From NCBI GenBank assembly GCA_000004985.1, contig GG738894.1: a stretch of DNA of 64,000 nt; one strand, written 5' to 3'. Below are positions 6,001 through 50,320 of the stretch, in pieces. The DNA comes from Naegleria gruberi. Taxonomy: Eukaryota. Numbering within the stretch: position 1 is the first letter of the stretch; each line of letters opens with the position of its first letter. Under the pieces are notes generated by a model. That model was given only the letters and a program-made list of their open reading frames with translations. It had not been told where the DNA came from and searched no databases. The position numbers and the translations under genes are program-made.

Positions 6001-9000
6001 NNNNNNNNNNNNNNNNNNNNNNNNNNNNNNNNNNNNNNNNNNNNNNNNNNNNNNNNNNNNNNNNNNNNNNNNNNNNNNNNNNNNNNNNNNNNNNNNNNNN
6101 NNNNNNNNNNNNNNNNNNNNNNNNNNNNNNNNNNNNNNNNNNNNNNNNNNNNNNNNNNNNNNNNNNNNNNNNNNNNNNNNNNNNNNNNNNNNNNNNNNNN
6201 NNNNNNNNNNNNNNNNNNNNNNNNNNNNNNNNNNNNNNNNNNNNNNNNNNNNNNNNNNNNNNNNNNNNNNNNNNNNNNNNNNNNNNNNNNNNNNNNNNNN
6301 NNNNNNNNNNNNNNNNNNNNNNNNNNNNNNNNNNNNNNNNNNNNNNNNNNNNNNNNNNNNNNNNNNNNNNNNNNNNNNNNNNNNNNNNNNNNNNNNNNNN
6401 NNNNNNNNNNNNNNNNNNNNNNNNNNNNNNNNNNNNNNNNNNNNNNNNNNNNNNNNNNNNNNNNNNNNNNNNNNNNNNNNNNNNNNNNNNNNNNNNNNNN
6501 NNNNNNNNNNNNNNNNNNNNNNNNNNNNNNNNNNNNNNNNNNNNNNNNNNNNNNNNNNNNNNNNNNNNNNNNNNNNNNNNNNNNNNNNNNNNNNNNNNNN
6601 NNNNNNNNNNNNNNNNNNNNNNNNNNNNNNNNNNNNNNNNNNNNNNNNNNNNNNNNNNNNNNNNNNNNNNNNNNNNNNNNNNNNNNNNNNNNNNNNNNNN
6701 NNNNNNNNNNNNNNNNNNNNNNNNNNNNNNNNNNNNNNNNNNNNNNNNNNNNNNNNNNNNNNNNNNNNNNNNNNNNNNNNNNNNNNNNNNNNNNNNNNNN
6801 NNNNNNNNNNNNNNNNNNNNNNNNNNNNNNNNNNNNNNNNNNNNNNNNNNNNNNNNNNNNNNNNNNNNNNNNNNNNNNNNNNNNNNNNNNNNNNNNNNNN
6901 NNNNNNNNNNNNNNNNNNNNNNNNNNNNNNNNNNNNNNNNNNNNNNNNNNNNNNNNNNNNNNNNNNNNNNNNNNNNNNNNNNNNNNNNNNNNNNNNNNNN
7001 NNNNNNNNNNNNNNNNNNNNNNNNNNNNNNNNNNNNNNNNNNNNNNNNNNNNNNNNNNNNNNNNNNNNNNNNNNNNNNNNNNNNNNNNNNNNNNNNNNNN
7101 NNNNNNNNNNNNNNNNNNNNNNNNNNNNNNNNNNNNNNNNNNNNNNNNNNNNNNNNNNNNNNNNNNNNNNNNNNNNNNNNNNNNNNNNNNNNNNNNNNNN
7201 NNNNNNNNNNNNNNNNNNNNNNNNNNNNNNNNNNNNNNNNNNNNNNNNNNNNNNNNNNNNNNNNNNNNNNNNNNNNNNNNNNNNNNNNNNNNNNNNNNNN
7301 NNNNNNNNNNNNNNNNNNNNNNNNNNNNNNNNNNNNNNNNNNNNNNNNNNNNNNNNNNNNNNNNNNNNNNNNNNNNNNNNNNNNNNNNNNNNNNNNNNNN
7401 NNNNNNNNNNNNNNNNNNNNNNNNNNNNNNNNNNNNNNNNNNNNNNNNNNNNNNNNNNNNNNNNNNNNNNNNNNNNNNNNNNNNNNNNNNNNNNNNNNNN
7501 NNNNNNNNNNNNNNNNNNNNNNNNNNNNNNNNNNNNNNNNNNNNNNNNNNNNNNNNNNNNNNNNNNNNNNNNNNNNNNNNNNNNNNNNNNNNNNNNNNNN
7601 NNNNNNNNNNNNNNNNNNNNNNNNNNNNNNNNNNNNNNNNNNNNNNNNNNNNNNNNNNNNNNNNNNNNNNNNNNNNNNNNNNNNNNNNNNNNNNNNNNNN
7701 NNNNNNNNNNNNNNNNNNNNNNNNNNNNNNNNNNNNNNNNNNNNNNNNNNNNNNNNNNNNNNNNNNNNNNNNNNNNNNNNNNNNNNNNNNNNNNNNNNNN
7801 NNNNNNNNNNNNNNNNNNNNNNNNNNNNNNNNNNNNNNNNNNNNNNNNNNNNNNNNNNNNNNNNNNNNNNNNNNNNNNNNNNNNNNNNNNNNNNNNNNNN
7901 NNNNNNNNNNNNNNNNNNNNNNNNNNNNNNNNNNNNNNNNNNNNNNNNNNNNNNNNNNNNNNNNNNNNNNNNNNNNNNNNNNNNNNNNNNNNNNNNNNNN
8001 NNNNNNNNNNNNNNNNNNNNNNNNNNNNNNNNNNNNNNNNNNNNNNNNNNNNNNNNNNNNNNNNNNNNNNNNNNNNNNNNNNNNNNNNNNNNNNNNNNNN
8101 NNNNNNNNNNNNNNNNNNNNNNNNNNNNNNNNNNNNNNNNNNNNNNNNNNNNNNNNNNNNNNNNNNNNNNNNNNNNNNNNNNNNNNNNNNNNNNNNNNNN
8201 NNNNNNNNNNNNNNNNNNNNNNNNNNNNNNNNNNNNNNNNNNNNNNNNNNNNNNNNNNNNNNNNNNNNNNNNNNNNNNNNNNNNNNNNNNNNNNNNNNNN
8301 NNNNNNNNNNNNNNNNNNNNNNNNNNNNNNNNNNNNNNNNNNNNNNNNNNNNNNNNNNNNNNNNNNNNNNNNNNNNNNNNNNNNNNNNNNNNNNNNNNNN
8401 NNNNNNNNNNNNNNNNNNNNNNNNNNNNNNNNNNNNNNNNNNNNNNNNNNNNNNNNNNNNNNNNNNNNNNNNNNNNNNNNNNNNNNNNNNNNNNNNNNNN
8501 NNNNNNNNNNNNNNNNNNNNNNNNNNNNNNNNNNNNNNNNNNNNNNNNNNNNNNNNNNNNNNNNNNNNNNNNNNNNNNNNNNNNNNNNNNNNNNNNNNNN
8601 NNNNNNNNNNNNNNNNNNNNNNNNNNNNNNNNNNNNNNNNNNNNNNNNNNNNNNNNNNNNNNNNNNNNNNNNNNNNNNNNNNNNNNNNNNNNNNNNNNNN
8701 NNNNNNNNNNNNNNNNNNNNNNNNNNNNNNNNNNNNNNNNNNNNNNNNNNNNNNNNNNNNNNNNNNNNNNNNNNNNNNNNNNNNNNNNNNNNNNNNNNNN
8801 NNNNNNNNNNNNNNNNNNNNNNNNNNNNNNNNNNNNNNNNNNNNNNNNNNNNNNNNNNNNNNNNNNNNNNNNNNNNNNNNNNNNNNNNNNNNNNNNNNNN
8901 NNNNNNNNNNNNNNNNNNNNNNNNNNNNNNNNNNNNNNNNNNNNNNNNNNNNNNNNNNNNNNNNNNNNNNNNNNNNNNNNNNNNNNNNNNNNNNNNNNNN

Positions 9001-9860
9001 NNNNNNNNNNNNNNNNNNNNNNNNNNNNNNNNNNNNNNNNNNNNNNNNNNNNNNNNNNNNNNNNNNNNNNNNNNNNNNNNNNNNNNNNNNNNNNNNNNNN
9101 NNNNNNNNNNNNNNNNNNNNNNNNNNNNNNNNNNNNNNNNNNNNNNNNNNNNNNNNNNNNNNNNNNNNNNNNNNNNNNNNNNNNNNNNNNNNNNNNNNNN
9201 NNNNNNNNNNNNNNNNNNNNNNNNNNNNNNNNNNNNNNNNNNNNNNNNNNNNNNNNNNNNNNNNNNNNNNNNNNNNNNNNNNNNNNNNNNNNNNNNNNNN
9301 NNNNNNNNNNNNNNNNNNNNNNNNNNNNNNNNNNNNNNNNNNNNNNNNNNNNNNNNNNNNNNNNNNNNNNNNNNNNNNNNNNNNNNNNNNNNNNNNNNNN
9401 NNNNNNNNNNNNNNNNNNNNNNNNNNNNNNNNNNNNNNNNNNNNNNNNNNNNNNNNNNNNNNNNNNNNNNNNNNNNNNNNNNNNNNNNNNNNNNNNNNNN
9501 NNNNNNNNNNNNNNNNNNNNNNNNNNNNNNNNNNNNNNNNNNNNNNNNNNNNNNNNNNNNNNNNNNNNNNNNNNNNNNNNNNNNNNNNNNNNNNNNNNNN
9601 NNNNNNNNNNNNNNNNNNNNNNNNNNNNNNNNNNNNNNNNNNNNNNNNNNNNNNNNNNNNNNNNNNNNNNNNNNNNNNNNNNNNNNNNNNNNNNNNNNNN
9701 NNNNNNNNNNNNNNNNNNNNNNNNNNNNNNNNNNNNNNNNNNNNNNNNNNNNNNNNNNNNNNNNNNNNNNNNNNNNNNNNNNNNNNNNNNNNNNNNNNNN
9801 NNNNNNNNNNNNNNNNNNNNNNNNNNNNNNNNNNNNNNNNNNNNNNNNNNNNNNNNNNNN
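1..9860. other. Assembly gap (unbroken run of N)
   Basis: Positions 1-9860 are all n; real sequence starts at 9861. Confidence 1.
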
Positions 9861-11302
9861 TCCTTGACCACTCGAATATTAATACTCAATCTTTTTCTAT
9901 TTCTGATTTTGGTTTTCCTAATTTTGTTCTTTTTGGTTCGAATTGGCACTTTGTCAGACCAATACTCCTCTGTGTCATAGCCAGAGAGACTGGATTCTTC
10001 TTCGGTGGCTTCTTCTAGCTCAGTAAAAATTGTTTCGTTTTGGGATTCGGATTCGGGTATGGTAGTTACATCTTCATTTAGTTGTTTTTCTCTATCGTAC
10101 TGTCCTTTGTCATTTGTTTTTTCTAATTCCAAATCAACCTCAGTTCCCTCTTCATCTGAATCAAACTCATCGTCATCACTCAGTGAGCTATATTCATCAT
10201 CACTCGAAAAGTCTTCTTCACTTTCCGCTCCAGAATAAACCATTTGAGGTTCTGTCTTGTCCAAGTATTGTTGAGATGACAATGAAAATTGTTCTAACTC
10301 TTCTGTCAATTTGCTGTCCCATTTTAACCTTTTCCTTAATTTCTTAGCTACTGGAAGTTTATAAACTATATCACAAAAGTAGTTTTCAAAGTATGAGGAT
10401 GTTAGTTCAATGAGATGGGAGAAATTTTTTACTCCAATATTGTACAACATTAACTCAACTCCTGCCAATATTCTGCCAAGCCTTTTTCTTGTTCTGTCAT
10501 TGTAGCATGAATCATTTGTTCTGACATCAAGTACTTCACTACTATTTGCACTCTGCCTCGAGGTTGTAATAAATTTACTGTTGGGGAAGTTTGACATGTA
10601 CGATTGAGCTGCCAGTAATGTGTATGCTGGATCTACAGTTAACGAAAGTTGTTTCATGTTCATGACAGAATAAACATTTCCATTATTCTTAATAAAGGTT
10701 GAAGGGTGGTCTTTTTCTACAAATTGTGAGAAGTCCATTTCTCCATATTCCAAAGAATAATCAATATTCTCCAAGGCCTTCTTTGGTGCCTTTTTTTTTG
10801 GTGAACCTAATTCAGAAGAAGCAGCTCGTTTATTAGATTCCTGAGGTGTTGGTTCAGAATTTTCTAAAAAAGAAGATGGTAAAAAAGACGACTGGGTGCT
10901 TAATACATCAACATTTGAATCTTGAGTCAAATTGAGTCTTTGGGTATTTGAAATTGGAGATGTGTTATTGAAAGGAGTTGTCACATGTTGAATGTTGACT
11001 CGTTGTTGGAAGTTTGATGTTGGAGTTGTTGTTGTTTCATGTTGACCAATGTTAACTCGTTGTTGAAAGTATCTTACATGATTTGAGGTAGGAATAATGT
11101 GTTGAAGGATAGGTGTTGGACTCGGAGACACCACATAGTTTGGAGAGGTTATGTGGATTGGTATTTGAGATGTGGGTGTTGTGTTGAAGGCTCTGATATT
11201 GGGGCATGTTGCTGGTTGACAACGGAATGGGCTGTAGAGTAAGGGTGATCTGTATGATTGACGTTGGTTGATGATTACCTGATGGTTGACTTGTTGATTC
11301 AT
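9861..11302 (-). CDS. Hypothetical protein, 3' end lost in the gap (Q/T/P-rich N-terminus, acidic C-terminal part)
   Basis: I translated the minus strand by hand from the ATG at 11302 (MNQQVNHQVIINQRQSYRSPLLYSPF...). It stays open for about 480 codons until it meets the N gap (...KIRNRKRLSINIRVVK). It is absent from the ORF track because it has no stop. Track ORFs 10005-10238 and 10114-10347 (+) are its antisense shadows. There is an internal near-repeat (FQQRVNIGQHETTTTPTSN / FQQRVNIQHVTTP). No family was recognised. Confidence 0.6.
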
Positions 11303-28382: not shown

Positions 28383-31300
28383 ATGGTTATTATTCGAAAG
28401 GTTTACTTGTCTAAACCTTGGTGGTTATTTGTGCTACTGTTTAGCTGCATCGTTTTCACAATACACAACAACAACCTTGTTCATTCTAAATCGCCTTCTC
28501 TATACATTCCACAAGTTTCGGATACAAGCCAGACTAATAACATTCCATCTTCTCTATCATCAACAAGTTCCACCTCATCGGATAAATGTAAAACAACTAA
28601 TCCCTTCATATTTTCCCTTCCTACACCATTCTTTCACTGGGCAGAATCGGATTTCAATAACATTGGTTCGAAAGCTTTTTATGAAAATAATTGTTTACAA
28701 ATTGAACAAGTAAATAGATATAATGGATATATTCCATATGATCAAGTCAAGAAATCTCTCACCACCACTTCGACAACATCTAATATTGCAGAATTTTTAA
28801 TCATTGACGATTATTCACTTTTCAAATTGTGGAAAGACAATATTACAAACTTCAAGCTCATTTCACAATTTGCCAAATCAACGAATCTAATTCTAATGTC
28901 CAAGAAGGAAAAACAAATTACATCGATGAGAGATTTGAAAAATAAGAAGGTTGCTGTTTGTCAACATCATTTGGAATATTTGATTTATGAATTATATAAA
29001 CTAGGAATGAGTTTGAGTGATATTAAATATGAGATTGTAAATTATGACCTCATGTATATGAGGGTTTTATATGAAGATATTGATGCATACTTTGTGGATG
29101 ATCGATACATTTTCACACAAGTGAGAAAGACAACTACAACTCTTTATTATCCTAGAGAGTTTAATATTATTGAATCATCACTCAATTATACAAAGGATGG
29201 AATCAACATGTTCAGATATGGTATTATTGTGAAAGATAATCCAAGTGTTAGTGGGCTTGAAGAAATTACAAGAAGATTCTTACTGACACAAACTCAAATG
29301 TACACCTTTTGTAGAGATAATCCTTTGGAGTGTTTTGAAAGATGGGTCGTCTATGATTACATGATTGATAATTTGAACAATTTATTGTGGCCTTCTATTG
29401 ATGGTTTTGGAAATATTAGTAGAGTTTCAATTACAAATTCAATGTCTATATATTTGGGAAGAAATCCAACTTCAACAGAATCAAAAATATTTATCAACCA
29501 GTTTGTCAATTCAACCATAATGGATGAGATTATTTCGAATTGTACTGATAATTTGTGTACAGGCATAGATGGATCTGTATTGAATATTACAGGACTTGCC
29601 TATTCAGATGCAACTCCAACATTTTGTGAGGATTACATATTCCCATATCCACTCTCTTGTAAGAGATATTACTTGTACTTTAGATTGTACTGCTCATTTG
29701 TTCCATTCCTTATTGGTTCCCTAATTAATTTGATATTTGCTGTCATTGTTCCATTCATGAGAAGTGAACACTTGATGAAGCATCGTTTCATAGCCCCATT
29801 TGTAACACCAGTTTGCTTTTCAGGATTTTTACTCTTCTCTGCTATATTATTTTGCAGGTTTTCCTATTTTCCTGAGAATGTCATTTACGGTTTGGCAAGT
29901 GCCTGTATCGTTACAGTTATTATTACACGTTCCATGAATGTGATTCGTTACTTTTATGTGAGAAATATGTTCAAGCTCATGAAAAAGAGGAATAAGAATG
30001 AAAATAATGGATCAGCATACAATTTCTCAATGAAAGAAGATAAGGAAGTATTGGATAGGAATATTCGGTTTCACAGAGTTGCAGCATCCAAATTGGTCTT
30101 TGTTATTATTTGGATAGTACTGGTAGTACTTATTGCTCCGTCATTTTTCATAGCTCAATACTATGCTCCGGAGAATTATATTATAAGAAATGGAATTTCC
30201 ATTATTGTCTATGTATTGGCAACATTTTTCATGGTTTTCCTCTTTATTTTTGATTTGATTGTTAATAGAAAGAGATTGAAAAAGAGAGGTTTCATTTCCT
30301 TCATTCTATTCGACGATCCACTATTGTACAGATTGGAATTATTATTGTGTGGGTTTGAATTGATTTCAATTGTTTGGATTTCTCTCAGTGATTACTATGT
30401 CTATAACATTGCTGCCTTCTCTGCACAAGCTGTTGGTTTCCTTTCTTTGGGCCTTTCTGGTGCTGTAACATGGTCTTATGGATTTGCAGCAGCTGTCATT
30501 CTCTATAGACGTGGCAAGAAGTTTATCATGTCCAAAGTTTATAGAAGAAGAGCAATGAAAAGTAATTCAAACCTCTCTACAGAATTGAGTGGAAGTGCAA
30601 TCCAAGCTGATTTCTTGGAAAAGTTAATTGAAAATGATGATTTTTATTCTCTTCTTGAAGGTATGTTATAGATTGAATAGTTACGAATTTAATGCTTGTA
30701 TAGATTATGCTAAGAAGGAATTCTCATCGGAAAATCTCTTCCTTTACAATGTAAGTTTTCATTAACTCAATCCTCATTTACATGTTCAATCTTTTTGGCA
30801 ATAGATACTGAGACAATATAGAAAAAGGAGAGAACTCTACATTTCGGATTTACTGTTCATTTACAATAATTATGTAAAGAATTATTCACCATTTGAAGTG
30901 AACGTCTCCTCTGAAACTAAGAAGAGCGTTAGAGAAATTCTCTACACTTACCATATGATTGAGTCAGCAACTTCTAAAGACAGATTCTCTAAAAGAATCA
31001 CCCAATTTCCAACAGATATTTTCCCAAATTATGATTCATTCTCGGGAGCTACTCCTTATCAGGCCTTTGATGATGTTCATTCATCGCCAAAACTTGCAAG
31101 TAAGGCGACCATGCCACCTTCATTTCAGAATAACAACTCTCCAATGATGGGTCGATTTAAAGATAGTTTCAGAAAGCTATCATCTGTTTCAGATAGTGAA
31201 GCAAGTAGGGGGGATGATCTTGTTGGAGATGACGCAGATATAGGATCAGATCAAAGCAGAACTCCTAGAAGAAGTACTGTAAGTGGAGGGGGACCAGTTA

Positions 31301-31449
31301 TTCCATTCAATCAAATTCAAGCACTTTACAATGATGTTACACAGAATGTTATGGATACTTTCAGTAGATTATGTGAAACGAGTGAATATCAGCAATGGGA
31401 ATCCCTTAATAATATGGCATTGTTCATCTCCAATAAGGAATTGGCTTGA
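28383..31449 (+). CDS. Seven-transmembrane RGS-domain receptor with an extracellular solute-binding-protein-like domain (7TM-RGS, copy 1)
   Basis: Exons are 28383-30660, 30704-30750 and 30805-31449, with introns of 43 and 54 nt (GTATGT and GTAAGT donors) and phases checked. The N-terminus is signal-like (WWLFVLLFSCIVFTI). The ectodomain carries a type-2 PBP pattern (ITSMRDLKNKKVAVCQHHLEYLIYELYKLGMSLSDIKYEIV...YEDIDAYFVDD). Seven hydrophobic helices follow. The RGS box appears only after splicing (FYSLLE|DYAKKEFSSENLFLYN|ILRQYRKRRELYISDLLFIYNNYVKNYSPFEVN...). Confidence 0.85.
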
Positions 31450-34085: not shown

Positions 34086-37000
34086 ATGCCTCAAAGTAGA
34101 ACAATTACACCAAATTTTCCCTCCATCAACATGTTCCTATTTCATCGAGAACCGTACTTTTTAGATTCGAGTGAGGATAAAAATCGTATTCAAATCAACA
34201 ACAAGAACAATAATAGGGATGATGGAGAAGCAAAAACAATATTAAGGATGAGAAGTTTGGATGAAACTGTGCGGGATGATGATACGCATTCTTCTTCAAT
34301 ACATCATCAAGAAGCCTTGGAACATGTTTTTGGTAAGACAAGAACATCTTCCGCTACAACGAGAACAGTATCACAAAATTCAAGGAATACTAATTATTTT
34401 AATGCTAATACAATAGCAAAAAGCGAGAATAACAACAACTACAAGAAAAACCTTATTAATCACCTGATAATATTATTATTAATTACACTCTTAGTTGTAC
34501 TTCCAACCTTTGTAGAGTGCCTACATCCATTCGCCACATACAATTGGAACAATGATGATGAGATTTGGTTTGCTCAGTCGGCACCATTTTCTGGCCCTAG
34601 TAGCACAATTGGGACAGGTAAGTAGTATCAACATGTAAATGTTCTATAGTGAGTACTTTAATTAGAATTGAGAAATGGAATATTAGCTGCTTTTAATGAA
34701 ATCAACTCTGTTGGAGGTATATTCGGAAAGAAGAAGCTGAGATTGATCAGTATGGACGATGGCTATGAACCACCCAATACAGTTCGCAACATTAATAATT
34801 TTCTGAATGGAAACAAGACAATATTTGGATTTATTGGAGTGGTAGGCTCACCCACTATTCTTGCAGCCTATGATTTGGTAGTGTCGTCTGGTCTTCCTCT
34901 GATTGGAAGTTACACAGGAGCTACATTTTTGAGACAGCCCTTTCATGCAAATTTTGTAAACATTAGACCATCATACTATGATGAAACAGCTGCAATTATG
35001 GATGTATTGATTGGAAAAAACATGGCGAGGAAAATATCAGTCCTTCATCAAGATGATCCTTTTGGAATTAATGGATATGAAGGAGTTAAACGTATACTTG
35101 ACCATATGGGAATTCCAATGTGTTCATCAGGAAGTTATCAAAGAAACACACTCAACGTTGAGGATGCATTCTACAAGATTGCAAAGTGTGATCCAGATGC
35201 TATTGTTGTAGTGGCACTGTATGCACCAGCAACAAAATTCATCAAAATGGTTACCAACTCGACCCTTTACCGAAAGGATATTTTATTTGCAGCAACCTCA
35301 ATAGCCAGCGATTTAATTGTAAAGGAGCTAGGCCCTGAAATTGCTCCAAGAGTTCTGTTTTCACAAGTTGCCCCTTCTCCAACAGATACATCCTCGACCC
35401 TTGTTAAATCTTTCATCACCGCAAGGAAATCAATAGATTCTAATTTTACACAAGGTACATTTATTGAAATAGAGGGATATATTGCTGGAAAAATGACGTA
35501 TCACTTGCTCCACAGAATAATTGGATACATGTCCCCCAGTAACATGCTGACTAATCTTTACTATTCACAAGAAGTTATGTTTGACAATTTGAAATTAGGA
35601 CCATTCTCTTCAGTGTCTGTCAAGGATCCTGTTTACCTTATTCAAACAAATTTTTCCACTCAATTTGATTGCAATCAAGGCTCAAAATCAGTTTGGAGGA
35701 CGAAAGCTGATTCTAACTTGAATTTCTATAATTATGCACCTCCATTTTCATGGTACACTTCTGGCACATGTATTTCAACCCCAGGCGATGTCATCAATCC
35801 AATTTTATTAGCACAACTTGTTTATAACAATCTAGGATCTTCTAATACCTATCTCACTAACGGAATTAAAGCCGCCTTATCCACTGCATATGTCCAGGGA
35901 AGACCTATACATCTACTAACTCGCACTTACTCAGATTTCCAATCTCTTATTTCCACCACTCAAGATCTCGTTGAAAACTACTATATTACTGCATTGGTTG
36001 GATCTTCTGGATTGGGAGAAGTTATTAGTTTAAATACTTCCTCTATTGATCTATTCAGAGAGATATTTAAAACATCCTTCCCACATATTCCTCTGATTGG
36101 AAGTGTAGTTGACAATCCGTCAATCATGTCAACAACTGGTTCGTTGTTTATCCCATCCATGGTAAACATTAGAAGTACAATCATTGAGGAAATTGGAACT
36201 TTGCTTCAACATGCATTCAAAAGAGGAGTTACCAGAATATCAATAGTGAACTGTCCTGCATACGTCCATATCAACAAAATTTTCAAACTTTTAATGTCAA
36301 AATTGCAACTAACAATTGAGAGTGAGCATGGATGCTCAGATACCATTCTTTTCGATAGCATCTCGATAAACCCACAAGTGGTTCTAGTAGCATGTGCATC
36401 TGCCATTCTCCCTGGAACTCTTTTAAAGTTGGATGCAAGTAGTAATCTTAGACAAGATGCATTGTTTTTTGTTTTGGAAGAGAAGAAAAAGCTAGTCTTG
36501 TCAAGCCTTGAGAGTGGACCTAAAGGTGTACAAAGACCTATCTTATATAGTTCTTCATTCCCAGATCCAAAAATCTCGGCCGTAACCATTGTTTCAAGAT
36601 TTAAATCAACTACACCGCCTCTAACAGATCTTTCTGGGTATTATTCTTCTGATTTGGCTCTTGAAGGATATTTTATTGGAGAGTTTGTTGGATCAATATT
36701 GGGATCAGTTGCAGATTCAGCACCCTCAATAACAGGTCAGGCAATTATTGACTTTATATACAAAAGTCAACAGATAGTGGTGAGAGACCAAAAGTATGGA
36801 TACTTTATTAGAGACAAGAAAAATTCATTGTGCAATATTGGGTCGAGAACAAGATTTCTATTCCAGATAAGAAATTGTTCAACCTCAATACTATCAACAA
36901 CAGGTTTCCAACAACAATCATGTTGTTTACAATCTGTTTTAGAGGATTCCAGTACCCTCAACTTTAGAAGACCAATGCAGTTCGTTAGATTCAAACCAGG

Positions 37001-39125
37001 AGACACTGAACAACTTACCATCGAAGCAATAGATGATTTTGCAAAAGGAGTAATATCTTTCATTAATGATATTAATACCATGGGGAAATATTCATTTGCC
37101 TTTCAATTTCTTACTCAAACTTTTAATGGATCTTCTGATATTCAAATGTTAGCTAACGATTTAACCTCTAAACAGCAAATATTTGGTGTTATCGCTCCAG
37201 ATGTAGATTATGACATTGAAATGTTTACGAACATTAGTTTACCAATTATCGGCCCCAAAACTGCTAACATGCAATACAGAAATTACAAAAAAAATGTAAT
37301 TAACATCTACCCTTCCTTAATAGATGAAATCTTCAATTTGGTTGAATTTTTCCTAAAATTTAGTGACGCAATTACTATTGTTTATGAGTCCTTGGATGTT
37401 AATAATTATGCTCAACCCCAGGTATTGAAAACTATCCAAAATATAATAACTAACAGACAACTTTCAAGAGTTTCCCTCACTTGTATGACTTGTGTCAGTG
37501 ATCAAGCAGGGTCAGTAATAATTATGGCAGAAACAGAAGAAATCATTCAGTTTATTAGAGCAAATCAGAAGATAATGAACAGAGTTGGTTTGATTTCAGA
37601 AGCATATGAAGAGCATGATGATCTTAAAGAGTTGTTGTCCCTTCATTCGAATGTTTACATGTCCACTATAGTATCCCTCACAACAGAAATGACGGGATTT
37701 GTGGAATCTGAATTCACAAAGCATTTTCAAGTTTCGTTTCCAAACGACGTGCCAACAATAGAGTCTATAGATGGTTTCGTTTCCTTTTTGTTTGTTGAAA
37801 AAGTATTTGAGTCATTCTTAGATAGAATACAACCAAGACAACAACAGGCTTTCATTGACAAGATATATAGTCTCTCTGTTTTAGATATTGGTGACATTAC
37901 TCTTGGAAAGTTCACCAATACCTGCAATCAAGGAACAAGAAGATTGTACGTTAGCAGATTTTCCCTTAGTAACACAAGTGAAGTCATAACAGTCACAGAA
38001 CCAAACAGTCTTTTCACAATTTCAACATGTGGGTATAACTTCCCTTCCCCTGCAGTCATGGATTATCTTTATTATATTCTAATTTCTATATTGGCTATAA
38101 TTTTTTTGATTGTAGCCATGGGAATATCAGGTTTATTAATTTACAGACAGTATAAGGCTAAAAAGTCACACCTTCATGCTCCAAAAGGAGGAGTCATTTC
38201 TTTTGCGTTTACTGATATTCAAAATTCTACTGTATTGTGGCAATACAATGAGAAAGCAATGAAATTAGCTCTTGCTATACATAACAAGATAGTTAGGGAT
38301 AATATTAAGAAATACAGAGGTTACGAAGTCAAAACTCAAGGGGATTCATTCTTTGTTGCTTTTAGAAAGATAGAAGATTGTATTAATTGGGCATTCTCTG
38401 TTCAAAGTGATTTATTGAAAGCAAATTGGCCATCTGATATTATTACACAGTATGATTGTAGACCAGAATTTGAGGAAGGAACAAAAGTTTTGATTTATTC
38501 TGGTTTGAGGGTAAGAATGGGGCTTCATTGTGGTCAAGCTGAATATATTTTTGATAAGACTGTGAAAAGACCAGATTACTTTGGCAACACCATTAACCAG
38601 ACTGCCAGAATTCAAGCTCTTGCAAGAGGAGGAGAAATATTATGTAGTGAGGCCATGTTACAAGAAAGCAAATATTTATTTAAAATTTCTGGCCCAAGTT
38701 TCGAGGAGGAATTGTCGCATCAATCCTTAAACATACCAAGAAGAAGCTCTGAATCCACATTGTCAAAGAAGCGTAGATCAGTTGTTCCTGGATCCAATCC
38801 AATCTATACAGCCGAAGATTTTGGATATTGCTCCCTAAAAGGTATTAAGGAGGAAGTCAGAGTCTTTACACTTAAAAATAATGATATGAAACTTAGAGTT
38901 TTTCCACCTATTGGAAGATACAAAAATATTGAGGAAACATCGAACAATACCTTGCGATCGATTGCTTCCGTTCCAACATTTGAAACATCAAGTATCAATG
39001 GAGATGATATCATTGTGCACATTCCTGATCAAGCATCAGACAACCAAAAGAGCAAACCTGAACGGTTGAACACTCAAGCGATTGAACTTCCAGAGATTAT
39101 GATTTCTGGTGTAGATAATAAATAA
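34086..39125 (+). CDS. Receptor-type class III adenylyl/guanylyl cyclase with tandem extracellular PBP type 1 (Leu/Ile/Val-binding, ANF-receptor-like) domains
   Basis: Exons are 34086-34617 and 34666-39125, separated by a 48-nt GTAAGT..AG intron in phase 1. The N-terminal anchor is LIILLLITLLVVLPTF. The PBP1 signature is LRNGILAAFNEINSVGGIFGKKKLRLISMDDGYEP...GFIGVVGSPT, with further PBP-like blocks downstream. A single TM follows (YILISILAIIFLIVAMGISGLLIY). The cyclase catalytic core is ISFAFTDIQNST...KTQGDSFFVAF...RVRMGLHCG...DYFGNTINQTARI. Confidence 0.92.
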
Positions 39126-44181: not shown

Positions 44182-45600
44182 ATGAATAGAATGAGTCGGG
44201 CATATTTTCAAATGTGGAGGTGCGAAGGGTTGGGATGTCCTACTACTAATAATCATCAAGCTAGGACGGTGGTATCATCGTCGGGTGGTGAGAAGGATCA
44301 TGATTGGAGGCGCACCAATTCAATATTAAAATTATTTAATCTTTTTGATCGGAATAGTAGCAATAGTAGTGGTGGTTATAAATATTGTAAAAATAATTTT
44401 TCCATGATGATGATAAGTTTTGGAGTGATGATCATGTTGTTAATGTCATTATTGAATAGTACGAGTTTTGTGAATGCTGCTGAAGTGCCATTATTATTGG
44501 GAAGTGGATCTTCACTTGTTGAAGAATTTCATAAAGAAGCAGCAAATTATTTTATTGGATACATGAGAAGAAGTGTCGATGTAATGTATGATGCCTCTGG
44601 ATCGGGGACTGGTGTGAAAAATTTATTTAATTCGAATGGAGTTTATTCATTTGCAGCAACTGATTATGGATTAAAGGCAGCTGACAGAAAAATTAATACA
44701 GATGCAAAAGTGTTGCCAATCATGACAACATATATTTCAATAATTGTATGTAGGATAGCGAAAGAAATTAATATTGAACATAATTAGAGTAATATTGAAG
44801 GATTGAAGGGTGGTTATTCAATTACCTTTTCCCAGGAGGCGCTTGTAGGAATATTTAATGGAACCATTTCCAGATGGAATGACCAAACATTGCAATTGTT
44901 GAATCCATCACTTGCACTCCCAAATACATCAATTTATGTGGTTGTTAGAAATGATTCAAGTGGCACTACTGACATGCTCACTACTGGATTATCATCATTT
45001 TCAAAGGAGTGGGCTTCAACATATGGATCGGGAACTTTAATCAAATGGTCATCCCTCTTATCGAACAGAATAATCTATGCAGAGGATGCCAAAGATGTTT
45101 CTTTCATCATTACTAGCACACCAAACACTATTGGGTACTCTACACCTACTACTTTTGAGCAGCATGCTCCAGCAACTATCAAAACAAAATTAGGAGCTTC
45201 TGTCACTCCCTCATCGAGCTATCTAAAAGGTGTAATAACAAGTGGAATATCATTTAATGAGAATTTTATGCATCCTTCTGTGGTTATAGATAGGCCAGAT
45301 ATTTACCCATTCGTTGGTGTTTCTTATATTGTCTATTTGTCATCCACAATGAATGATTGTGTAAAGGCTACTTATTTGGGCAAGCTTTTGGAATATTATA
45401 CTTCAGATAGAGCTACCAAGATTATTGAGGATGCCGCCTTTTCTTCACTCTTCATTGATGCATCTGTAAAGGAAAGATATATGGGATATTTGAAAAATTT
45501 CACATGTAATGGTAAACCTGTACTGAGTTCCAGTTCCATCACTCAATATTCGATAGCACTTTTAATTTTATTGATTATTCAATTATTATGTATTTTATAA
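44182..45600 (+). CDS. PstS-family (DING-like) phosphate-binding protein, secreted or surface-anchored
   Basis: Exons are 44182 (or 44404)-44745 and 44788-45600, separated by a 42-nt GTATGT..AG intron in phase 0. The signal peptide is best from the ATG at 44404 (MMMISFGVMIMLLMSLLNSTSFVNA). PstS blocks are GSGSS, YDASGSGTGVKNL, FAATD, LVGIFNGTISRWNDQTLQLLNPSLALPNTSIYVVVRNDSSGTT and NTIGY. The C-terminal tail is hydrophobic (YSIALLILLIIQLLCIL). Confidence 0.85.
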
Positions 45601-45610
45601 GTTATATATT

Positions 45611-46624
45611 TTACAAAACCAAAGCAAATAATGCAACGATAACCATAATTAAGGAAACAAGATGCATACTCAATACATTTGCGCTATTAACTCTTGTATC
45701 GAAAGTGGTATATGTTTGTACATAATCCAAATAACTTGTAACATTTGTATAGATACCTCTATTTGAAACCGATCCTGCAGTTCCACATCCGTTAGGTCCA
45801 AAACTAACAATACCAAAAACAATATAATCATTTGTAGAATTAGGAGCTTTGTAAAATAATGGCCCTCCAGAATCACCTTGACAGCTAGTTATCATTAATT
45901 AATTATTGGAATTAATATTTTCAACTTAAATAATGAGGAATAAATACACCTACCTGTCATGTCCTTTTCCATCGCCAGCACAGATTTGTTTTGGTGATGA
46001 AGCATCCAAGTTAATAGCATTACATTTACTCATATCAACCACAGGTACAGTAACTTTCATCAAATCTGTTGGAAGTGGTTGAGTATCAACAGTTGTTCCC
46101 CATCCAGCAACAATAGATGAGAAACCAATAGGAATTGATCCAATTTCCAAATAGGCAGCCTTAGCTGTTTTACCGTCCAATGTCATTGCTGATTCCAATT
46201 CAAGAATAGCTATATCATTTACAACATTATTATTTGAATCACTATATTGAGGATGGACATGAATGTTCTTTATCTTAATATATTTACGTTGTACATCACT
46301 CACAGAATTTCCACCATATACAGCAATCCAAGGTAATGTATCAGGGGGACTGAAACAATGGGCAGCTGAGAGTAAATATTTGGAATTTATAATTGAAGCT
46401 CCACAAGTGTGACTGTAGCTTTTGGCGCTGATATCATCAGCCTGTTGGAGTGAGACAATGAATGGAAATTCGTTGGTGCTTGCCTTTTCACCATTGGACA
46501 CTTTAGAATCTCTCACTTTAAGTTGTTGAGCAGTTGATAATTTAGATATTAAGGCAACAATACTCAACAGAAGGAGGGCAAGAGTCCTCTTCCTTCCACT
46601 GTTACTACTTCCTCCGATCAACAT
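45611..46624 (-). CDS. Trypsin-like (S1) serine protease with a signal peptide and hydrophobic C-terminal tail (copy 1)
   Basis: Exons are 45954-46624 and 45611-45884, separated by a 69-nt intron (45885-45953); the join reads ...[16 protein letters not shown]. The likely start is the ATG at 46624 ([32 protein letters not shown]). The catalytic triad contexts are SAAHC, NDIAIL and GDSGGP. The tail is [16 protein letters not shown]. Confidence 0.92.
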
Positions 46625-46793
46625 TGTGTGAATTTTTATTGTTGTTGAAATAATTAAATTGGAAGTGTGAAGGACAAAACCAATCCAAAGATTACTGTGG
46701 AAGAGGAAATAGAGCGTTCTTTTAGGAGATAATTTGATCATTCTTTTATTATATTTCACAACTATATTGAAGGAACATCATGTGATGACCCAC

Positions 46794-49061
46794 TTAAAAG
46801 TCATATAATTCATTTTCCTTTTGAAGTTCTGTGAGTTTGAGCCACTTTTTGTACTCTGCTGTTTCCTCAAGTCTAGAAAAGGTATCAGATACATTCTTAA
46901 TGACTTCAAAGATGAGGATTTCTCTCAATTCAGAGTAAGGGATTGAGTTTGCAGTTGGTGTTTGCTCACAAACTTGTTTCTTCTCTTCAAACCATTTGTA
47001 AAATGCCTTTTTAGTAGAGTTTGGAAAATTGACCTCAAACTTGGAATAATTTCTCATATAGAGCTCTTCAATTTGGGCAGCCTGTTCGAAAGTTAAGAAT
47101 GAATCTGCAGAATTGACGAGGGAACTTGAACTAAATGTTCGTGAGGTTCTTGAATTGGATGTAGGCAATGAGTCAGTAGATGCTCCCATACTTGATTTCG
47201 ATCTATCATTACCTGAAGATGGGCTTTTCTTATTCTCCAATGATATTAACATTTCATATAACATTACATTTTCAATTGAAAATTCCTTCTTTGCAAACTT
47301 TCTCAATAATTTCATCAAATTCACATCTTCCAATCTGGATTCCAATGTTCTCTTTCCTTTTGGTTCATTGCCTCTGTTTGAAGAAAGTAATTTACTTATT
47401 TTTCTATAAATTTCAATAATCATTGCACTTCCACCAAGAATTAAATAACAAGTCAATGAAAATAGAACTGTCAATACTCCAATGGCAAATTGATTATTAT
47501 ACACTAACAGGGTGATAATTGTGAGTACGAGGAGTAAAAATATGAGTAACAAGTCTATCTTGATATAGAACGGATCATCAAAGAAAAAGTAGTAGTATAT
47601 TCCTTTCTTTTTGATCTTTCTTCGATTTCCAATCATATCCAATAGCAAGAATATTAAACCAATTACAATACATAGAATAATGACAGCACCAAGAGGTGCA
47701 TTTCTGAAATATCCCAAATAGGAAGTAAGGTAAACTTCTTTTTCTAGTATCATGAGAACCGAAGCTCCAAGAGGAATAAAAGGTACTGTTACACTTGTAA
47801 CTAATCCTAACCACTTCTTTCCCAAAAACTTGAAAAATTTGAAATGATCAGATTTTGAAATTATTGTAAACAAATTTCTCAGATAGAAATATCTCACAAC
47901 TGTTATAAAATACAGGAATACAGGATACATTACAACTGCATTGGCTATTCCATTATACAATCGAGTGCAATTGGCAGTAAATACCATAATCTGGAAAATG
48001 TTTCGCATAATAACAAAGAGTGGGCAAAGGTATGGAACAGCCAATCTAATTTTGATGGATTTAGTATTAAATGTCAATAACAGACCAATATAGTAGATAC
48101 ATAGAAAAAAAATTGCATAAACACCTTGGATTTCTTCATATTTAACAGGTTCAAAGGCACAGGTGGAGGATGAACATTCATATACTTCACTGTTCATGTA
48201 AGAAAGGGTGATATTGGAGATTCCAATACTTGAAATTGTTTCGTTTGTATACAATGTGATTTGAGGGTAACTGCTTTGAAGATATTTCACAAAATTATTA
48301 AATTCGAAACTAGAATTTGATAGAGAAATTTTTGATGACCTAAACAGACAATAATCGTGATTCAAATAACATGAAGTACGGTAAGAATCCCCTTTCACTT
48401 CTTCTCTGCACAATCTAATTAATGAATCACATGTTGTAGTGAAGTTGTTAAAATAATCAGTGACACATGAGATTTGGTTTTGATCTAGACTGTTGGAATA
48501 TGAAAAGAACAATGGTGCCAATCTCACAACATTTAAATCTTCAACCTGTAGGTATCTACCTAGCTTGTTATTTCCTCTAATCAACCTCAAAACCTTTGGC
48601 ATTTCTCTGTCAGTTGTTATGATAATTGGACCTTCATTTGATGACCAATAATCAACAAGAATACTTCCAAACACGCAATCAGAGTTGATTCTAACAGCTG
48701 AAAGAATGGAAATAGGTTTGATATCAGCATATGCAGAAGTTGAAATATTATAAATTTCTAATAATGTGTTAAAGGAACTTTCTAATATTTTCAATCGTTG
48801 GTCGGAAACTGAGTAAAAATCAGAATTTGGAGTAAATAGAATGATTCTCTTGTTTTCAAATAGTGATCTTGGTGTAGTAGTTGAATAACCTTTAAGAGCT
48901 ATTGCAATAATAGTTTCATTGGACGAAACTATCTGAATTGGTTGTTGACCATAAATTTCCTTCAATTGACCAATACTCGCTGTCTTTAACCCACAACTAC
49001 AAATCACACAGTGTAGTTGAACTAAACACAACACCAATGAAATCGTAAAGCTGATGTGCAT
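46794..49061 (-). CDS. Seven-transmembrane RGS-domain receptor (7TM-RGS, copy 2; intronless paralogue)
   Basis: The first ATG is at 49061 (MHISFTISLVLCLVQLHCVICS, signal-like); the track start at 49100 is GTG. It has a ~300-aa ectodomain, seven hydrophobic helices and an RGS box (LRKFAKKEFSIENVMLYEML ... YMRNYSKFEVNFPNSTKKAF). It shares family-specific motifs with copy 1: RYFY(V/L)RN, NR(K/R)(R/K)(L/I)KK(R/K)G..F(L/F)FDDP and the C-terminal DTFSRL.ET.EY..W. Confidence 0.85.
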   Translation of the reverse strand: MHISFTISLVLCLVQLHCVICSCGLKTASIGQLKEIYGQQPIQIVSSNETIIAIALKGYSTTTPRSLFENKRIILFTPNSDFYSVSDQRLKILESSFNTLLEIYNISTSAYADIKPISILSAVRINSDCVFGSILVDYWSSNEGPIIITTDREMPKVLRLIRGNNKLGRYLQVEDLNVVRLAPLFFSYSNSLDQNQISCVTDYFNNFTTTCDSLIRLCREEVKGDSYRTSCYLNHDYCLFRSSKISLSNSSFEFNNFVKYLQSSYPQITLYTNETISSIGISNITLSYMNSEVYECSSSTCAFEPVKYEEIQGVYAIFFLCIYYIGLLLTFNTKSIKIRLAVPYLCPLFVIMRNIFQIMVFTANCTRLYNGIANAVVMYPVFLYFITVVRYFYLRNLFTIISKSDHFKFFKFLGKKWLGLVTSVTVPFIPLGASVLMILEKEVYLTSYLGYFRNAPLGAVIILCIVIGLIFLLLDMIGNRRKIKKKGIYYYFFFDDPFYIKIDLLLIFLLLVLTIITLLVYNNQFAIGVLTVLFSLTCYLILGGSAMIIEIYRKISKLLSSNRGNEPKGKRTLESRLEDVNLMKLLRKFAKKEFSIENVMLYEMLISLENKKSPSSGNDRSKSSMGASTDSLPTSNSRTSRTFSSSSLVNSADSFLTFEQAAQIEELYMRNYSKFEVNFPNSTKKAFYKWFEEKKQVCEQTPTANSIPYSELREILIFEVIKNVSDTFSRLEETAEYKKWLKLTELQKENELYDF

Positions 49062-49468: not shown

Positions 49469-50320
49469 ATGAGTAAACTTAACAGACAAGATTTTGAAAA
49501 TCATCAATTCATTAATTCGGAGGAAATATTCACTAACAATAATAATAATAATAATATAGAAGAGAAAGTAAAAAAGCATGTAAAACTCGAACAAGAAATA
49601 TTTTCAGATGATATTTGTTTTGAAATAATTTCAATGATTGATGATTCGTGGTTTATTTTAAATAATTGTACTTTAATTTCAAAACAATTCTTTAATGTGA
49701 TCAAGGAACGTTCAAAACTTGTTATTCAATTTAAAAAAAAATTTACAGAGAAACGAGTTGAAATATTAAAGAAAAGTCAATTTATGAATAGTATTGTTAA
49801 TCTTAAATTTTCAACAAATTTGTTTGACTATTTTGAAGAAGCAAAATTTATAAGTGAAATGAAAGAATTAACATCGCTTAATATTAATGGCAATGTAATT
49901 GGTGCAGAAGGAGCAAAATTCATCAGTGGAATGAAACAATTGACATCACTTAATATTTCTTACAATGTAATTGGTGATAAAGGAGCTAAATTGATAAGTG
50001 AAATGAAACAGTTAATATCAATTAATATTTCTTACAATAGAATTTGTGGTGAAGGAGCTAAATTCATAAGTGAAATGAAACAATTGACATCACTTAATAT
50101 TGCTAACAATTCAATTGGCGATACAGGAGCTAAATTCATCAGTGGAATGAAAGAATTAACATCACTTGATATATATAATAATAGAATTGGCAGAGAAGGA
50201 GCAAAATACATTAGTGAAATGAAACAATTGACATCACTTGATATTGGTGGCAATCAAATTGGTGATGAAGAAGTAAAATTGATAAGTGAAATGAAACAAT
50301 TGACATCACTAAGAAAATAA
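49469..50320 (+). CDS. Leucine-rich repeat protein, inverted paralogue of 17527-18660
   Basis: ATG-initiated ORF of 283 aa. The first ~115 aa are almost identical to the other copy (MSK.NRQDFENHQ.INSEEIFTNNNNNN..EEKVKKHVKLEQEIFSDDICFEII.MIDDSWFILNNCTLISKQFFNVIKERSKLVIQFK). About 7 LRR units of 24 aa follow. Confidence 0.9.
   Translation: MSKLNRQDFENHQFINSEEIFTNNNNNNNIEEKVKKHVKLEQEIFSDDICFEIISMIDDSWFILNNCTLISKQFFNVIKERSKLVIQFKKKFTEKRVEILKKSQFMNSIVNLKFSTNLFDYFEEAKFISEMKELTSLNINGNVIGAEGAKFISGMKQLTSLNISYNVIGDKGAKLISEMKQLISINISYNRICGEGAKFISEMKQLTSLNIANNSIGDTGAKFISGMKELTSLDIYNNRIGREGAKYISEMKQLTSLDIGGNQIGDEEVKLISEMKQLTSLRK
49859..50317 (+). repeat. Tandem 72-bp coding LRR repeat array (copy 2)
   Basis: The unit gaaatgaaacaattgacatcacttaatatt recurs with a 72-nt period. 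Confidence 0.85.

What the first reader, a model, noticed from the sequence alone, without database searches (positions are those of the whole stretch)
46794..49061. Second, intronless 7TM-RGS paralogue with a large low-complexity insert inside the RGS domain
The architecture matches 28383-31449: signal, ectodomain, 7 TM and RGS. The two share family-specific motifs (RYFY.RN after TM3, NRxxxKKxG..FFDDP after TM5, C-terminal DTFSRL.ET.EY..W). This copy is encoded without introns. Its RGS box is split by a ~50-aa Ser-rich insert (SPSSGNDRSKSSMGASTDSLPTSNSRTSRTFSSSSLVNSADS). The ectodomains are much more diverged than the TM and RGS parts, as expected if the two sense different ligands.
Basis: partly seen in the sequence, partly recalled or inferred. 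Interest (0 to 1): 0.5.

Follow-up and report, generated by a model that had tools for sequence, protein, structure and literature searches.

The report
Naegleria 7TM-RGS receptor, loop insert
This is an intact, intronless Naegleria gruberi gene for a receptor-like protein (extracellular domain, seven membrane helices, cytoplasmic G-protein "off-switch" RGS domain) whose RGS domain has a 42-residue disordered serine-rich loop; it belongs to a protein class already described in Naegleria, so it is largely ordinary.

Summary
Window 46794-49061 (minus strand) is one uninterrupted 755-codon ORF, identical to an NCBI "predicted protein [Naegleria gruberi]" that has no domain annotation.

- **Architecture:** signal peptide, about 287-aa ectodomain, seven TM helices and a C-terminal RGS domain.
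- **RGS fold:** the model matches RGS17 with TM 0.72.
- **Insert:** 42 aa, not about 50, in the alpha4-alpha5 loop. It is predicted disordered and lies opposite the G-alpha-binding face. It pushes the protein below Pfam's RGS threshold, yet the G-alpha-contact residues are the most conserved columns of the family.
- **Coding status:** a 108-nt in-frame GT..AG intron is formally possible there. Composition and codon periodicity argue that the insert is coding.
- **Family:** at least 136 cluster representatives. Every named one I looked up is Naegleria or Willaertia.
- **The two window genes** are distant family members, not a recent duplicate pair. Identity is RGS 36%, 7TM 28%, and the ectodomains are not significantly similar.

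Naegleria 7TM-RGS proteins and their GAP activity were described by Bosch et al. 2022. This is a new member of a known kind. The probable solute-binding-protein-like ectodomain is the most interesting detail.

The parts
46794..49061 (-). Complete single-exon CDS (755 codons plus stop) of the 7TM-RGS protein
   Evidence: ORF list. Translation and coordinates verified. 100% identical to the 755-aa N. gruberi predicted protein.
48996..49061 (-). Signal-peptide-like N-terminus (residues 1-22, MHISFTISLVLCLVQLHCVICS)
   Evidence: Kyte-Doolittle peak of 2.24 at residues 3-21. Cleavage was not tested; it is inferred from the glycosylation-sequon-rich, Cys-containing domain that follows.
48135..48995 (-). 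Ectodomain (residues 23-309): alpha/beta core followed by a helical part, ending in the nearly invariant C296/C301 pair just before TM1
47406..48134 (-). Seven-transmembrane domain (residues 310-552), GPCR fold
47874..47894 (-). RYFYLRN motif at the cytoplasmic end of TM3 (residues 390-396)
   Evidence: Aligned with RYFYVRN of the other window gene. R390 is nearly invariant and 'YLRNLY' is the family consensus.
47571..47627 (-). NRRKIKKKG..FFFDDP motif in intracellular loop 3 (residues 479-497)
   Evidence: Aligned in register with the other gene. G487, D496 and P497 are nearly invariant in the family.
47226..47345 (-). RGS domain, N-terminal part through helix alpha4 (residues 573-612), including EFSIEN (593-598)
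   Evidence: The family profile aligns this stretch to RGS17 and RGS10. E597 is invariant; E593, S595 and N598 are nearly invariant. Model pLDDT is above 90.
47100..47225 (-). 42-aa Ser/Thr-rich low-complexity insertion in the alpha4-alpha5 loop (residues 613-654)
   Evidence: Spacing is 82 aa against a family mode of 40. pLDDT is below 50 for residues 621-647. GC is 0.407 (measured on the overlapping 108-nt candidate intron 47105-47212); codon-position GC is 0.28/0.71/0.24, which indicates coding sequence. No tandem repeat.
46803..47099 (-). RGS domain, C-terminal part, helices alpha5 to alpha8/9 (residues 655-753), including FEVN (675-678) and DTFSRLEETAEYKKW (726-740)
   Evidence: The family profile aligns to RGS10 through 'DSYSRF'. 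N678 and R730 are nearly invariant. Model pLDDT is above 90.
28383..31449 (+). The other window member of the family: three exons, 28383-30660, 30704-30750 and 30805-31449, giving 989 aa
   Evidence: Splice model built (introns GTATGT..ATAG and GTAAGT..ATAG). The spliced C-terminus scores 30.2 bits on Pfam RGS, above the gathering score. The ectodomain hits NMT1/THI5-like at 22.6 bits, above the gathering score of 20.5. Family HMM E=1.6e-90.

Best explanation
The gene encodes a receptor-like GTPase-activating protein of the 7TM-RGS class.

A cleaved signal peptide places a glycosylated ectodomain of about 287 aa outside the cell. That ectodomain is probably related to solute-binding proteins. 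A GPCR-fold seven-helix domain spans the membrane, and the C-terminal RGS domain sits in the cytoplasm. There the RGS domain accelerates GTP hydrolysis on one or more of the many Naegleria G-alpha subunits, as AtRGS1 does in plants and as the Nf 7TM RGS proteins do in N. fowleri.

The Ser/Thr-rich 42-residue segment is a translated, disordered insertion in the alpha4-alpha5 loop. This loop lies at the pole of the RGS four-helix bundle opposite the G-alpha-binding loops, so the insertion need not impair GAP function. It is either neutral low-complexity growth at an insertion-tolerant loop or a phosphorylation-type regulatory loop.

- **Shown here:** the ORF, topology, GPCR and RGS folds, family membership, conserved contact residues, and the insert's position and predicted disorder.
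- **Taken from the literature:** RGS domains of Naegleria 7TM-RGS proteins are G-alpha GAPs.
- **Inferred:** GAP activity of this protein, ligand binding by the ectodomain, and any role for the insert.
For: - **Gene model.** Intact 755-aa ORF identical to the public model.
- **Topology.** Signal peak plus seven TM peaks, and positive-inside K+R counts of 13 against 1.
- **RGS fold.** The RGS part matches RGS17 with TM 0.72-0.73.
- **RGS homology.** The family profile hits 35 PDB sequences, all RGS-domain proteins, the best being RGS17 at 4.5e-11. 46 of 61 family members hit Pfam RGS. The insert-deleted domain gives RGS as a weak hit (15.5 bits), and RGS10 is the only PDB match.
- **Conserved contact residues.** The invariant or nearly invariant family columns are E593, S595, E597, N598, E676, N678, T727 and R730. 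Through the RGS10 alignment they map to the residues that contact G-alpha in RGS4 (E87/N88, N128, D163/R167; mapping from my own knowledge of the RGS4-Gi-alpha1 structure).
- **Insert site is tolerant.** Inserts at the same loop occur in at least four other members: P0005 +53 aa, P0010 +19, P0100 +12, P0101 +155.
- **Insert looks coding.** GC is 0.41 against 0.26-0.30 in the two neighbouring-gene introns, and codon-position GC is 0.28/0.71/0.24.
- **Literature.** N. fowleri has 28 7TM-RGS proteins. Isolated RGS domains of several accelerate GTP hydrolysis on Nf G-alpha subunits, including self-activating ones (PMC9283941).
Against: - The protein itself does not reach Pfam's RGS gathering score, with or without the insert.
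- No expression or protein-level evidence was available; the exact-protein look-up found no record.
- The biochemically tested N. fowleri proteins are much longer (1215-2459 aa) and have EGF, lectin or GPS ectodomains. I could not show that they belong to the same 7TM family.
- Whether the 7TM part acts only as an anchor or sensor, or also as an exchange factor, is unknown.
Confidence: 0.75

Rival explanations
1. The 'insert' is mostly an unannotated in-frame intron. Splicing GTAATG (47212) to CTGCAG (47105) would remove 108 nt (36 codons) and leave a contiguous RGS domain.
For: The candidate has canonical GT..AG ends and a length divisible by three. Removal would bring the EFSxEN-to-FEVN spacing to 46, inside the family range of 39-46. 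The neighbouring family member does have short introns inside its RGS-coding part.
Against: - GC is 0.407, against 0.256 and 0.296 for the two real introns of the neighbouring gene and 0.323 for the CDS as a whole.
- Three-base periodicity is strong: GC by codon position is 0.28/0.71/0.24, which is not expected in an intron.
- The donor GTAATG differs from the GTAAGT and GTATGT seen nearby.
- Other members carry inserts of 12-155 aa at the same loop, including single-exon N. lovaniensis P0005.
- The public gene model keeps the segment.
Confidence: 0.07
2. The RGS domain is a degenerate, non-catalytic scaffold, and the protein signals or adheres through its 7TM and ectodomain only.
For: The score is below the Pfam threshold and a large loop insertion is present. 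Some RGS domains are known to have lost GAP activity (stated in PMC3971589).
Against: The G-alpha-contact positions are the best-conserved columns of the whole family and are intact in this protein: E597, N598, N678, D726 and R730. The insertion lies in a loop at the pole opposite the binding face (inference from RGS4 topology). The flanking helices are modelled with pLDDT above 90.
Confidence: 0.1
3. The protein is a bifunctional receptor. The 7TM domain activates G-alpha as a conventional GPCR exchange factor, and the tethered RGS then limits the signal.
Against: No 7TM-RGS protein has been shown to have exchange-factor activity. This is from the papers read here, which describe AtRGS1 and the Trichomonas and Naegleria proteins only as GAPs. 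The conserved cytoplasmic motifs could equally position the RGS domain.
Confidence: 0.12

Closest known systems
Naegleria fowleri 7TM RGS proteins (Nf 7TM RGS1-4 and a family of 28; Bosch, Jeck and Siderovski 2022, PMC9283941)
   Same: Same genus and the same overall construction: extracellular N-terminus, seven TM helices and a C-terminal RGS domain. The RGS domains of several were shown to be selective GAPs for Nf G-alpha subunits through the canonical RGS/G-alpha interface.
   Different: The four characterised proteins are 1215-2459 aa and have EGF-like, lectin and GPS elements. This protein is 755 aa with a probable solute-binding-protein-like ectodomain and a Ser-rich insertion in the RGS alpha4-alpha5 loop.
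Arabidopsis AtRGS1 (plant 7TM-RGS)
   Same: [quoted passage not shown] It is regulated by phosphorylation of Ser residues and by endocytosis (PMC3865004; abstracts listed).
   Different: AtRGS1 has no large ectodomain. Its regulatory Ser cluster lies C-terminal to the RGS box rather than inside it (my own knowledge). Homology between the two 7TM domains was not tested.
Class C GPCRs (mGlu, CaSR, TAS1R, GABA-B) and GPR158-RGS7
Canonical RGS domains (RGS17, RGS10, RGS4; Pfam PF00615)
   Same: Helical fold, the EFSxEN, EVN and DxxxR motifs, and normal family spacing: 40 aa from EFSxEN to EVN, against 42 in RGS4 as I recall its sequence.
   Different: A 42-aa disordered insertion between alpha4 and alpha5. 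The score is below Pfam's threshold.

Membership tests
RGS domain (Pfam PF00615) | Own sequence scores above the Pfam gathering score (23.9 bits) | tested here: not met
   No hit for the full protein or for the C-terminus with the insert. With the insert deleted the score is 15.5 bits, E=0.023.
RGS domain (Pfam PF00615) | Demonstrable homology to RGS domains through a family profile | tested here: met
   46 of 61 family members hit PF00615 at E<=0.01. The family profile hits 35 PDB sequences, all RGS-domain proteins, the best being RGS17 at 4.5e-11. The target fits the family HMM at E=1.2e-166 and the other window gene at 1.6e-90.
RGS domain (Pfam PF00615) | All-helical RGS fold | tested here: met
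   In the AF2 model the helices flanking the insert have pLDDT above 90. Foldseek to RGS17 (6am3) gives a TM-score of 0.72-0.73 normalised to the target, probability 1.0. This is a prediction, not an experimental structure.
RGS domain (Pfam PF00615) | G-alpha-contact residues (RGS4 E87/N88, N128, D163/R167 equivalents) | tested here: met
   E597, N598, N678, D726 and R730 are present. Of these, E597, N598, N678 and R730 are among the most conserved family columns. The register was confirmed by the profile alignment to RGS10. The mapping to RGS4 numbering is from my own knowledge.
RGS domain (Pfam PF00615) | GAP activity on a G-alpha subunit | not testable with these tools
   This needs a biochemical assay. 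It has been shown for other Naegleria 7TM-RGS RGS domains (PMC9283941).
7TM-RGS receptor-like GAPs (AtRGS1, Trichomonas and N. fowleri 7TM RGS) | Seven TM helices N-terminal to an RGS domain in one polypeptide | tested here: met
7TM-RGS receptor-like GAPs (AtRGS1, Trichomonas and N. fowleri 7TM RGS) | N-out/C-in topology that puts the RGS domain in the cytoplasm | tested here: met
   Signal-like N-terminus. K+R counts are 13 in the odd-numbered loops against 1 in the even-numbered ones. There are 6 sequons in the ectodomain and 1 in ECL1. This is a sequence-based inference only.
7TM-RGS receptor-like GAPs (AtRGS1, Trichomonas and N. fowleri 7TM RGS) | 7TM domain homologous to that of AtRGS1 or of Nf 7TM RGS1-4 | not tested
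All named relatives found are Naegleria or Willaertia; the rest come from unnamed metagenome contigs.
Class C GPCR | Sequence match to 7tm_3 and an ANF_receptor / type-I Venus-flytrap ectodomain | tested here: not met
   No such Pfam hit in the target or in 61 relatives. The ectodomain's structural neighbours are type-II binding proteins.
Class C GPCR | 7TM structure closest to class C receptors | tested here: met
Type-II periplasmic solute-binding protein fold (ectodomain) | Sequence or structural match to the SBP/PBP-II superfamily | tested here: inconclusive

The most novel reading that the evidence does not exclude
This protein and its closest relatives may form a distinct subfamily of receptor-GAPs, so far named only from Naegleria and Willaertia. 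The proposed build resembles a class C GPCR run in reverse: a solute-binding-protein-like (type II) ligand-binding ectodomain, a conserved Cys pair, a class-C-like 7TM and a fused RGS domain. Small-molecule binding outside would then tune G-alpha inactivation inside. The recurrent Ser-rich insertion at the distal alpha4-alpha5 loop would act as a phospho-regulatory switch analogous to the AtRGS1 Ser cluster. Because such inserts push members below the Pfam threshold (the target and P0005 give no RGS hit), published censuses of RGS and 7TM-RGS genes would undercount them.
Probability: 0.3. Interest if true: 0.55.

Novelty: new member of a known kind. Interest (0 to 1): 0.3.

Why it matters
- **Annotation.** It gives a function to a Naegleria gruberi 'predicted protein' that carries no domain annotation.
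- **Census bias.** Loop insertions can hide real RGS domains from HMM-based counts. 15 of 61 family members, including this one and N. lovaniensis P0005, give no Pfam RGS hit at E<=0.01. The published figures of 229 RGS genes in N. gruberi and 28 7TM-RGS genes in N. fowleri may therefore be low.
- **A testable ligand-binding module.** If the ectodomain really is a solute-binding-type module, this subfamily would offer a 7TM-RGS with a recognisable ligand-binding domain. That would make the open question raised by Bosch et al. 2022, whether and how extracellular cues change GAP activity, experimentally approachable.

Otherwise the gene is one more member of a large lineage-specific expansion.

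Tried and rejected
- **Word-indexed search with a 61-sequence family alignment.** It returned only the query itself, probably because low-complexity words swamped it. That search was wasted.
- **AlphaFold database fold search.** The library was not available, so no structural comparison with AtRGS1 or other protist 7TM-RGS proteins was possible.
- **Exact-protein contig look-up for the target.** Nothing was on record, so there is no transcript-level evidence on the insert.
- **Synteny with the two best N. lovaniensis relatives (L001, L002).** No neighbouring window gene matches either locus, so orthology is unresolved.
- **Homology of the target's insert with the insert of P0005.** Local alignment score 37, against 30 +/- 5 for shuffles; z=1.3, and 122 of 1000 shuffles reach it. 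The apparent 'SSxGxSxxSL' similarity was rejected as a composition effect.
- **Slippage origin of the insert.** Tandem Repeats Finder reports nothing inside it.
- **In-frame intron reading.** Considered and judged unlikely.
- **Recent tandem duplication of the two window genes.** Rejected. They are 15 kb apart on opposite strands, and the other gene ranks 54th of 73 in distance (a crude NJ tree on BLOSUM distances without support values).
- **Papers not held.** Bradford et al. 2013 and Anantharaman et al. 2011 could not be read. I could not check whether they already describe this subfamily.
Full report
**What is there.** Window 46794-49061 on the minus strand is a single open reading frame of 755 codons. 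It runs from the first ATG (49059-49061) to a stop at 46794-46796. The product is 100% identical over its full length to an NCBI/UniRef "predicted protein [Naegleria gruberi]" of 755 aa with no precomputed Pfam domain. The window is therefore N. gruberi, and the intronless reading matches the public gene model. GC content is about 0.30-0.37 across the window, and the first ~9.9 kb are N.

**Architecture and topology.**
- Kyte-Doolittle analysis gives an N-terminal signal-like peak (residues 3-21) and seven further hydrophobic segments between residues 310 and 552.
- The loops predicted to be cytoplasmic hold 13 Lys+Arg, against 1 in the external loops. The 287-aa N-terminal domain has 6 NxS/T sequons and 9 Cys, excluding the three in the signal peptide.
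- This fits an N-out/C-in topology with a cytoplasmic C-terminal domain.

**The 7TM domain.**
- I built an AlphaFold2 model of residues 300-755 on an alignment of 65 family members. Mean pLDDT is 87 and pTM is 0.69, with seven long helices followed by a helical bundle.
- No Pfam 7TM family matches the target or any of 61 relatives. At sequence level this is an unclassified 7TM family.

**Is the C-terminal domain an RGS domain?**

*On its own sequence, only weakly.*
- Pfam gives no RGS hit for the full protein.
- With residues 613-654 deleted, RGS appears at 15.5 bits (E=0.023), below the gathering score of 23.9.
- The only PDB sequences that match the insert-deleted domain at E<10 are three RGS10 entries, E about 0.02-0.03.

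*At family level, clearly yes.*
- phmmer against 1.84 billion cluster representatives found 136 relatives: 83 at E<=1e-10 and 25 at E<=1e-30.
- 46 of 61 full-length relatives hit Pfam RGS at E<=0.01.
- A profile of 65 members hits 35 PDB sequences, all RGS-domain proteins. The best is RGS17 at 4.5e-11, and RGS10 is aligned across the whole domain.

*Conserved residues.* The invariant or nearly invariant columns of the family are E593, S595, E597, N598, E676, N678, N723, T727, R730 and T734, besides a few 7TM positions. Through the RGS10 alignment, EFSxEN, EVN and DTFSR correspond to the RGS4 residues that contact G-alpha: E87/N88, N128 and D163/R167. That mapping is from my own knowledge of the RGS4-Gi-alpha1 structure.

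*Fold.* In the model the RGS helices on both sides of the insert have pLDDT above 90. Foldseek aligns the domain to RGS17 with a TM-score of 0.72-0.73 normalised to RGS17.

**The insert.**
- In the family, the distance from the EFSxEN motif to the [FY]EVN motif is 39-46 aa, mode 40. Canonical RGS4 has 42 as I recall its sequence.
- In this protein the distance is 82. The insertion is therefore 42 aa (residues 613-654, nt 47100-47225), not about 50.
- It lies between helices alpha4 and alpha5.
- It is 46% Ser+Thr (measured over residues 611-656), against 17% for the whole protein.
- Its core, residues 621-647, has pLDDT below 50.
- In an antiparallel four-helix bundle, the alpha3-alpha4, alpha5-alpha6 and alpha7-alpha8 loops that bind G-alpha are at one pole, and the alpha4-alpha5 and alpha6-alpha7 loops are at the other. 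The insertion should therefore not disturb the binding face. This is an inference from known RGS topology; I could not inspect model coordinates.
- The same loop carries insertions in at least four other members: N. lovaniensis P0005 +53 aa, N. gruberi P0010 +19, a metagenome fragment P0100 +12, and Willaertia P0101 +155. It is an insertion-tolerant site.
- P0005, like the target, gives no Pfam RGS hit at all.
- The apparent similarity between the target's and P0005's inserts does not exceed composition-matched shuffles (z=1.3). No tandem repeat underlies the insert.

**Could the insert be an intron?**
- A GTAATG...CTGCAG segment (47212 to 47105, 108 nt) is in frame. Its removal would restore a spacing of 46, so the idea had to be considered.
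- Against it, its GC content is 0.407. The two introns I identified in the neighbouring family member have 0.256 and 0.296, and the CDS has 0.323.
- GC by codon position in the insert is 0.28/0.71/0.24, a strong three-base periodicity that an intron should not show.
- Inserts of very different lengths occur at the same loop in other members, including a single-exon gene.
- I put this reading at about 7%. RNA-seq would settle it.

**Relation to the gene at 28383-31449.**
- I spliced that gene as exons 28383-30660, 30704-30750 and 30805-31449, giving 989 aa.
- Its C-terminus scores 30.2 bits on Pfam RGS, above threshold and across both splice junctions.
- BLASTP of the two proteins gives E=3e-18.
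- The family HMM matches it at E=1.6e-90.

| Domain | Identity | z against shuffles |
|---|---|---|
| RGS (inserts removed) | 35.7% | 21.4 |
| 7TM | 27.8% | 11.6 |
| Ectodomain | 26% over the aligned part | 1.8, not significant |

- That gene has the normal spacing of 40 aa at alpha4-alpha5. It carries about 100 extra residues between EVN and DTFSR, in the alpha6-alpha7 loop at the same distal pole.
- In a crude neighbour-joining tree of the 7TM-RGS region, the target groups with N. gruberi P0004, N. lovaniensis P0003 and P0005, and Willaertia P0006. The other window gene ranks 54th of 73 by distance.
- The two are distant members of one family, not a recent duplicate pair.

**The ectodomain.**
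- Pfam finds nothing in the target's ectodomain, and the family profile finds no solved relative for it.
- An AF2 model of residues 20-335 (pLDDT 80, pTM 0.80) shows an alpha/beta core followed by a helical part.
- Independently, the other window gene's ectodomain passes the Pfam NMT1/THI5-like threshold (22.6 bits against 20.5). The family HMM aligns the two ectodomains.
- Two Cys just before TM1, C296 and C301, are nearly invariant.
- I regard a divergent solute-binding-protein-like ectodomain as likely but not established.

**Distribution.** Of the 20 relatives I looked up by name:
- 11 come from Naegleria gruberi, N. lovaniensis or Willaertia magna. Several of these are labelled "RGS domain-containing protein" by UniProt.
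- 9 come from unnamed metagenome or run assemblies.

**What is already known.**
- 7TM-RGS proteins are established in plants (AtRGS1) and Trichomonas, and are reported in many other eukaryotes (PMC3865004; PMC3971589).
- N. gruberi has been counted as having 229 RGS genes (PMC3971589).
- Bosch, Jeck and Siderovski 2022 (PMC9283941) describe 28 7TM-RGS proteins in N. fowleri.
- They showed that isolated RGS domains of several accelerate GTP hydrolysis on Nf G-alpha subunits, including self-activating ones, through the canonical interface.
- They noted EGF-like, lectin and GPS elements in the ectodomains of the four long proteins they studied.
- They left open whether extracellular cues alter GAP activity.

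The kind of protein is therefore known in this genus. This gene is an unannotated member.

**Most likely mechanism.** It is a membrane receptor-like GAP. The cytoplasmic RGS domain deactivates one or more of the many N. gruberi G-alpha subunits at the membrane. The ectodomain and 7TM part provide localisation and, probably, ligand control of that activity. The Ser-rich loop is a tolerated disordered insertion, possibly a phosphorylation target.
- Shown here: sequence, topology, folds, family membership and residue conservation.
- Transferred from N. fowleri and plant work: GAP activity.
- Inference: ligand control and any function of the loop.

**Verdict.** It is a new member of a known kind, of modest interest. 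The two points worth carrying forward are that loop insertions hide real RGS domains from HMM censuses, and that this subfamily may pair a recognisable ligand-binding fold with a 7TM-RGS.

Noticed in passing
window 34668-39125 (+): A large ORF combining Peripla_BP_6/ANF_receptor, a 'Peripla_BP_A-cyclase' domain and an adenylate/guanylate cyclase catalytic domain. It is a receptor-type cyclase with binding-protein ectodomain(s), of the kind known to be greatly expanded in Naegleria (80 cyclases in N. fowleri, PMC9283941).
   Followed up: no
window 44182-44787 and 44803-45600 (+): Two adjacent ORFs match the N-terminal and C-terminal parts of the PBP_like_2 (phosphate-binding-protein-like) domain. 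They are probably one gene interrupted by a short intron or a frameshift. This puts another binding-protein-fold gene within 2 kb of the target.
   Followed up: no
window 28383-31449 (+), residues about 840-935 of the spliced product: The other family member carries its own low-complexity insertion of about 100 aa, but in the RGS alpha6-alpha7 loop. Its EVN-to-DTFSR spacing is 154 aa, against 40-55 in most members. Its two introns (43 and 54 nt) lie inside the RGS-coding part.
   Followed up: partly
P0002 (Willaertia magna, 663 aa): This relative has an F-box/LRR-like N-terminal region in front of the 7TM-RGS part, in place of a signal peptide and ectodomain (one F-box hit among members). It could be a gene-model fusion with an upstream F-box/LRR gene, or a real domain swap.
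   Followed up: no
family alignment A3 (61 members): 15 of 61 members of this RGS-containing family give no Pfam RGS hit at E<=0.01, including the target and P0005, which both have alpha4-alpha5 inserts. HMM-based counts of RGS genes in Heterolobosea are probably underestimates.
   Followed up: partly
window 1-9900: The first ~9.9 kb of the window are N (GC fraction 0 in the composition profile). This is an assembly gap or padding at a scaffold end.
   Followed up: no
window 45950-46759 (-) and 49469-50320 (+): The immediate neighbours are a trypsin-family serine protease ORF (96.9 bits) only 35 bp downstream of the target's stop codon, and an RNI-type leucine-rich-repeat protein. Neither has a counterpart next to the N. 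lovaniensis relatives.
   Followed up: partly
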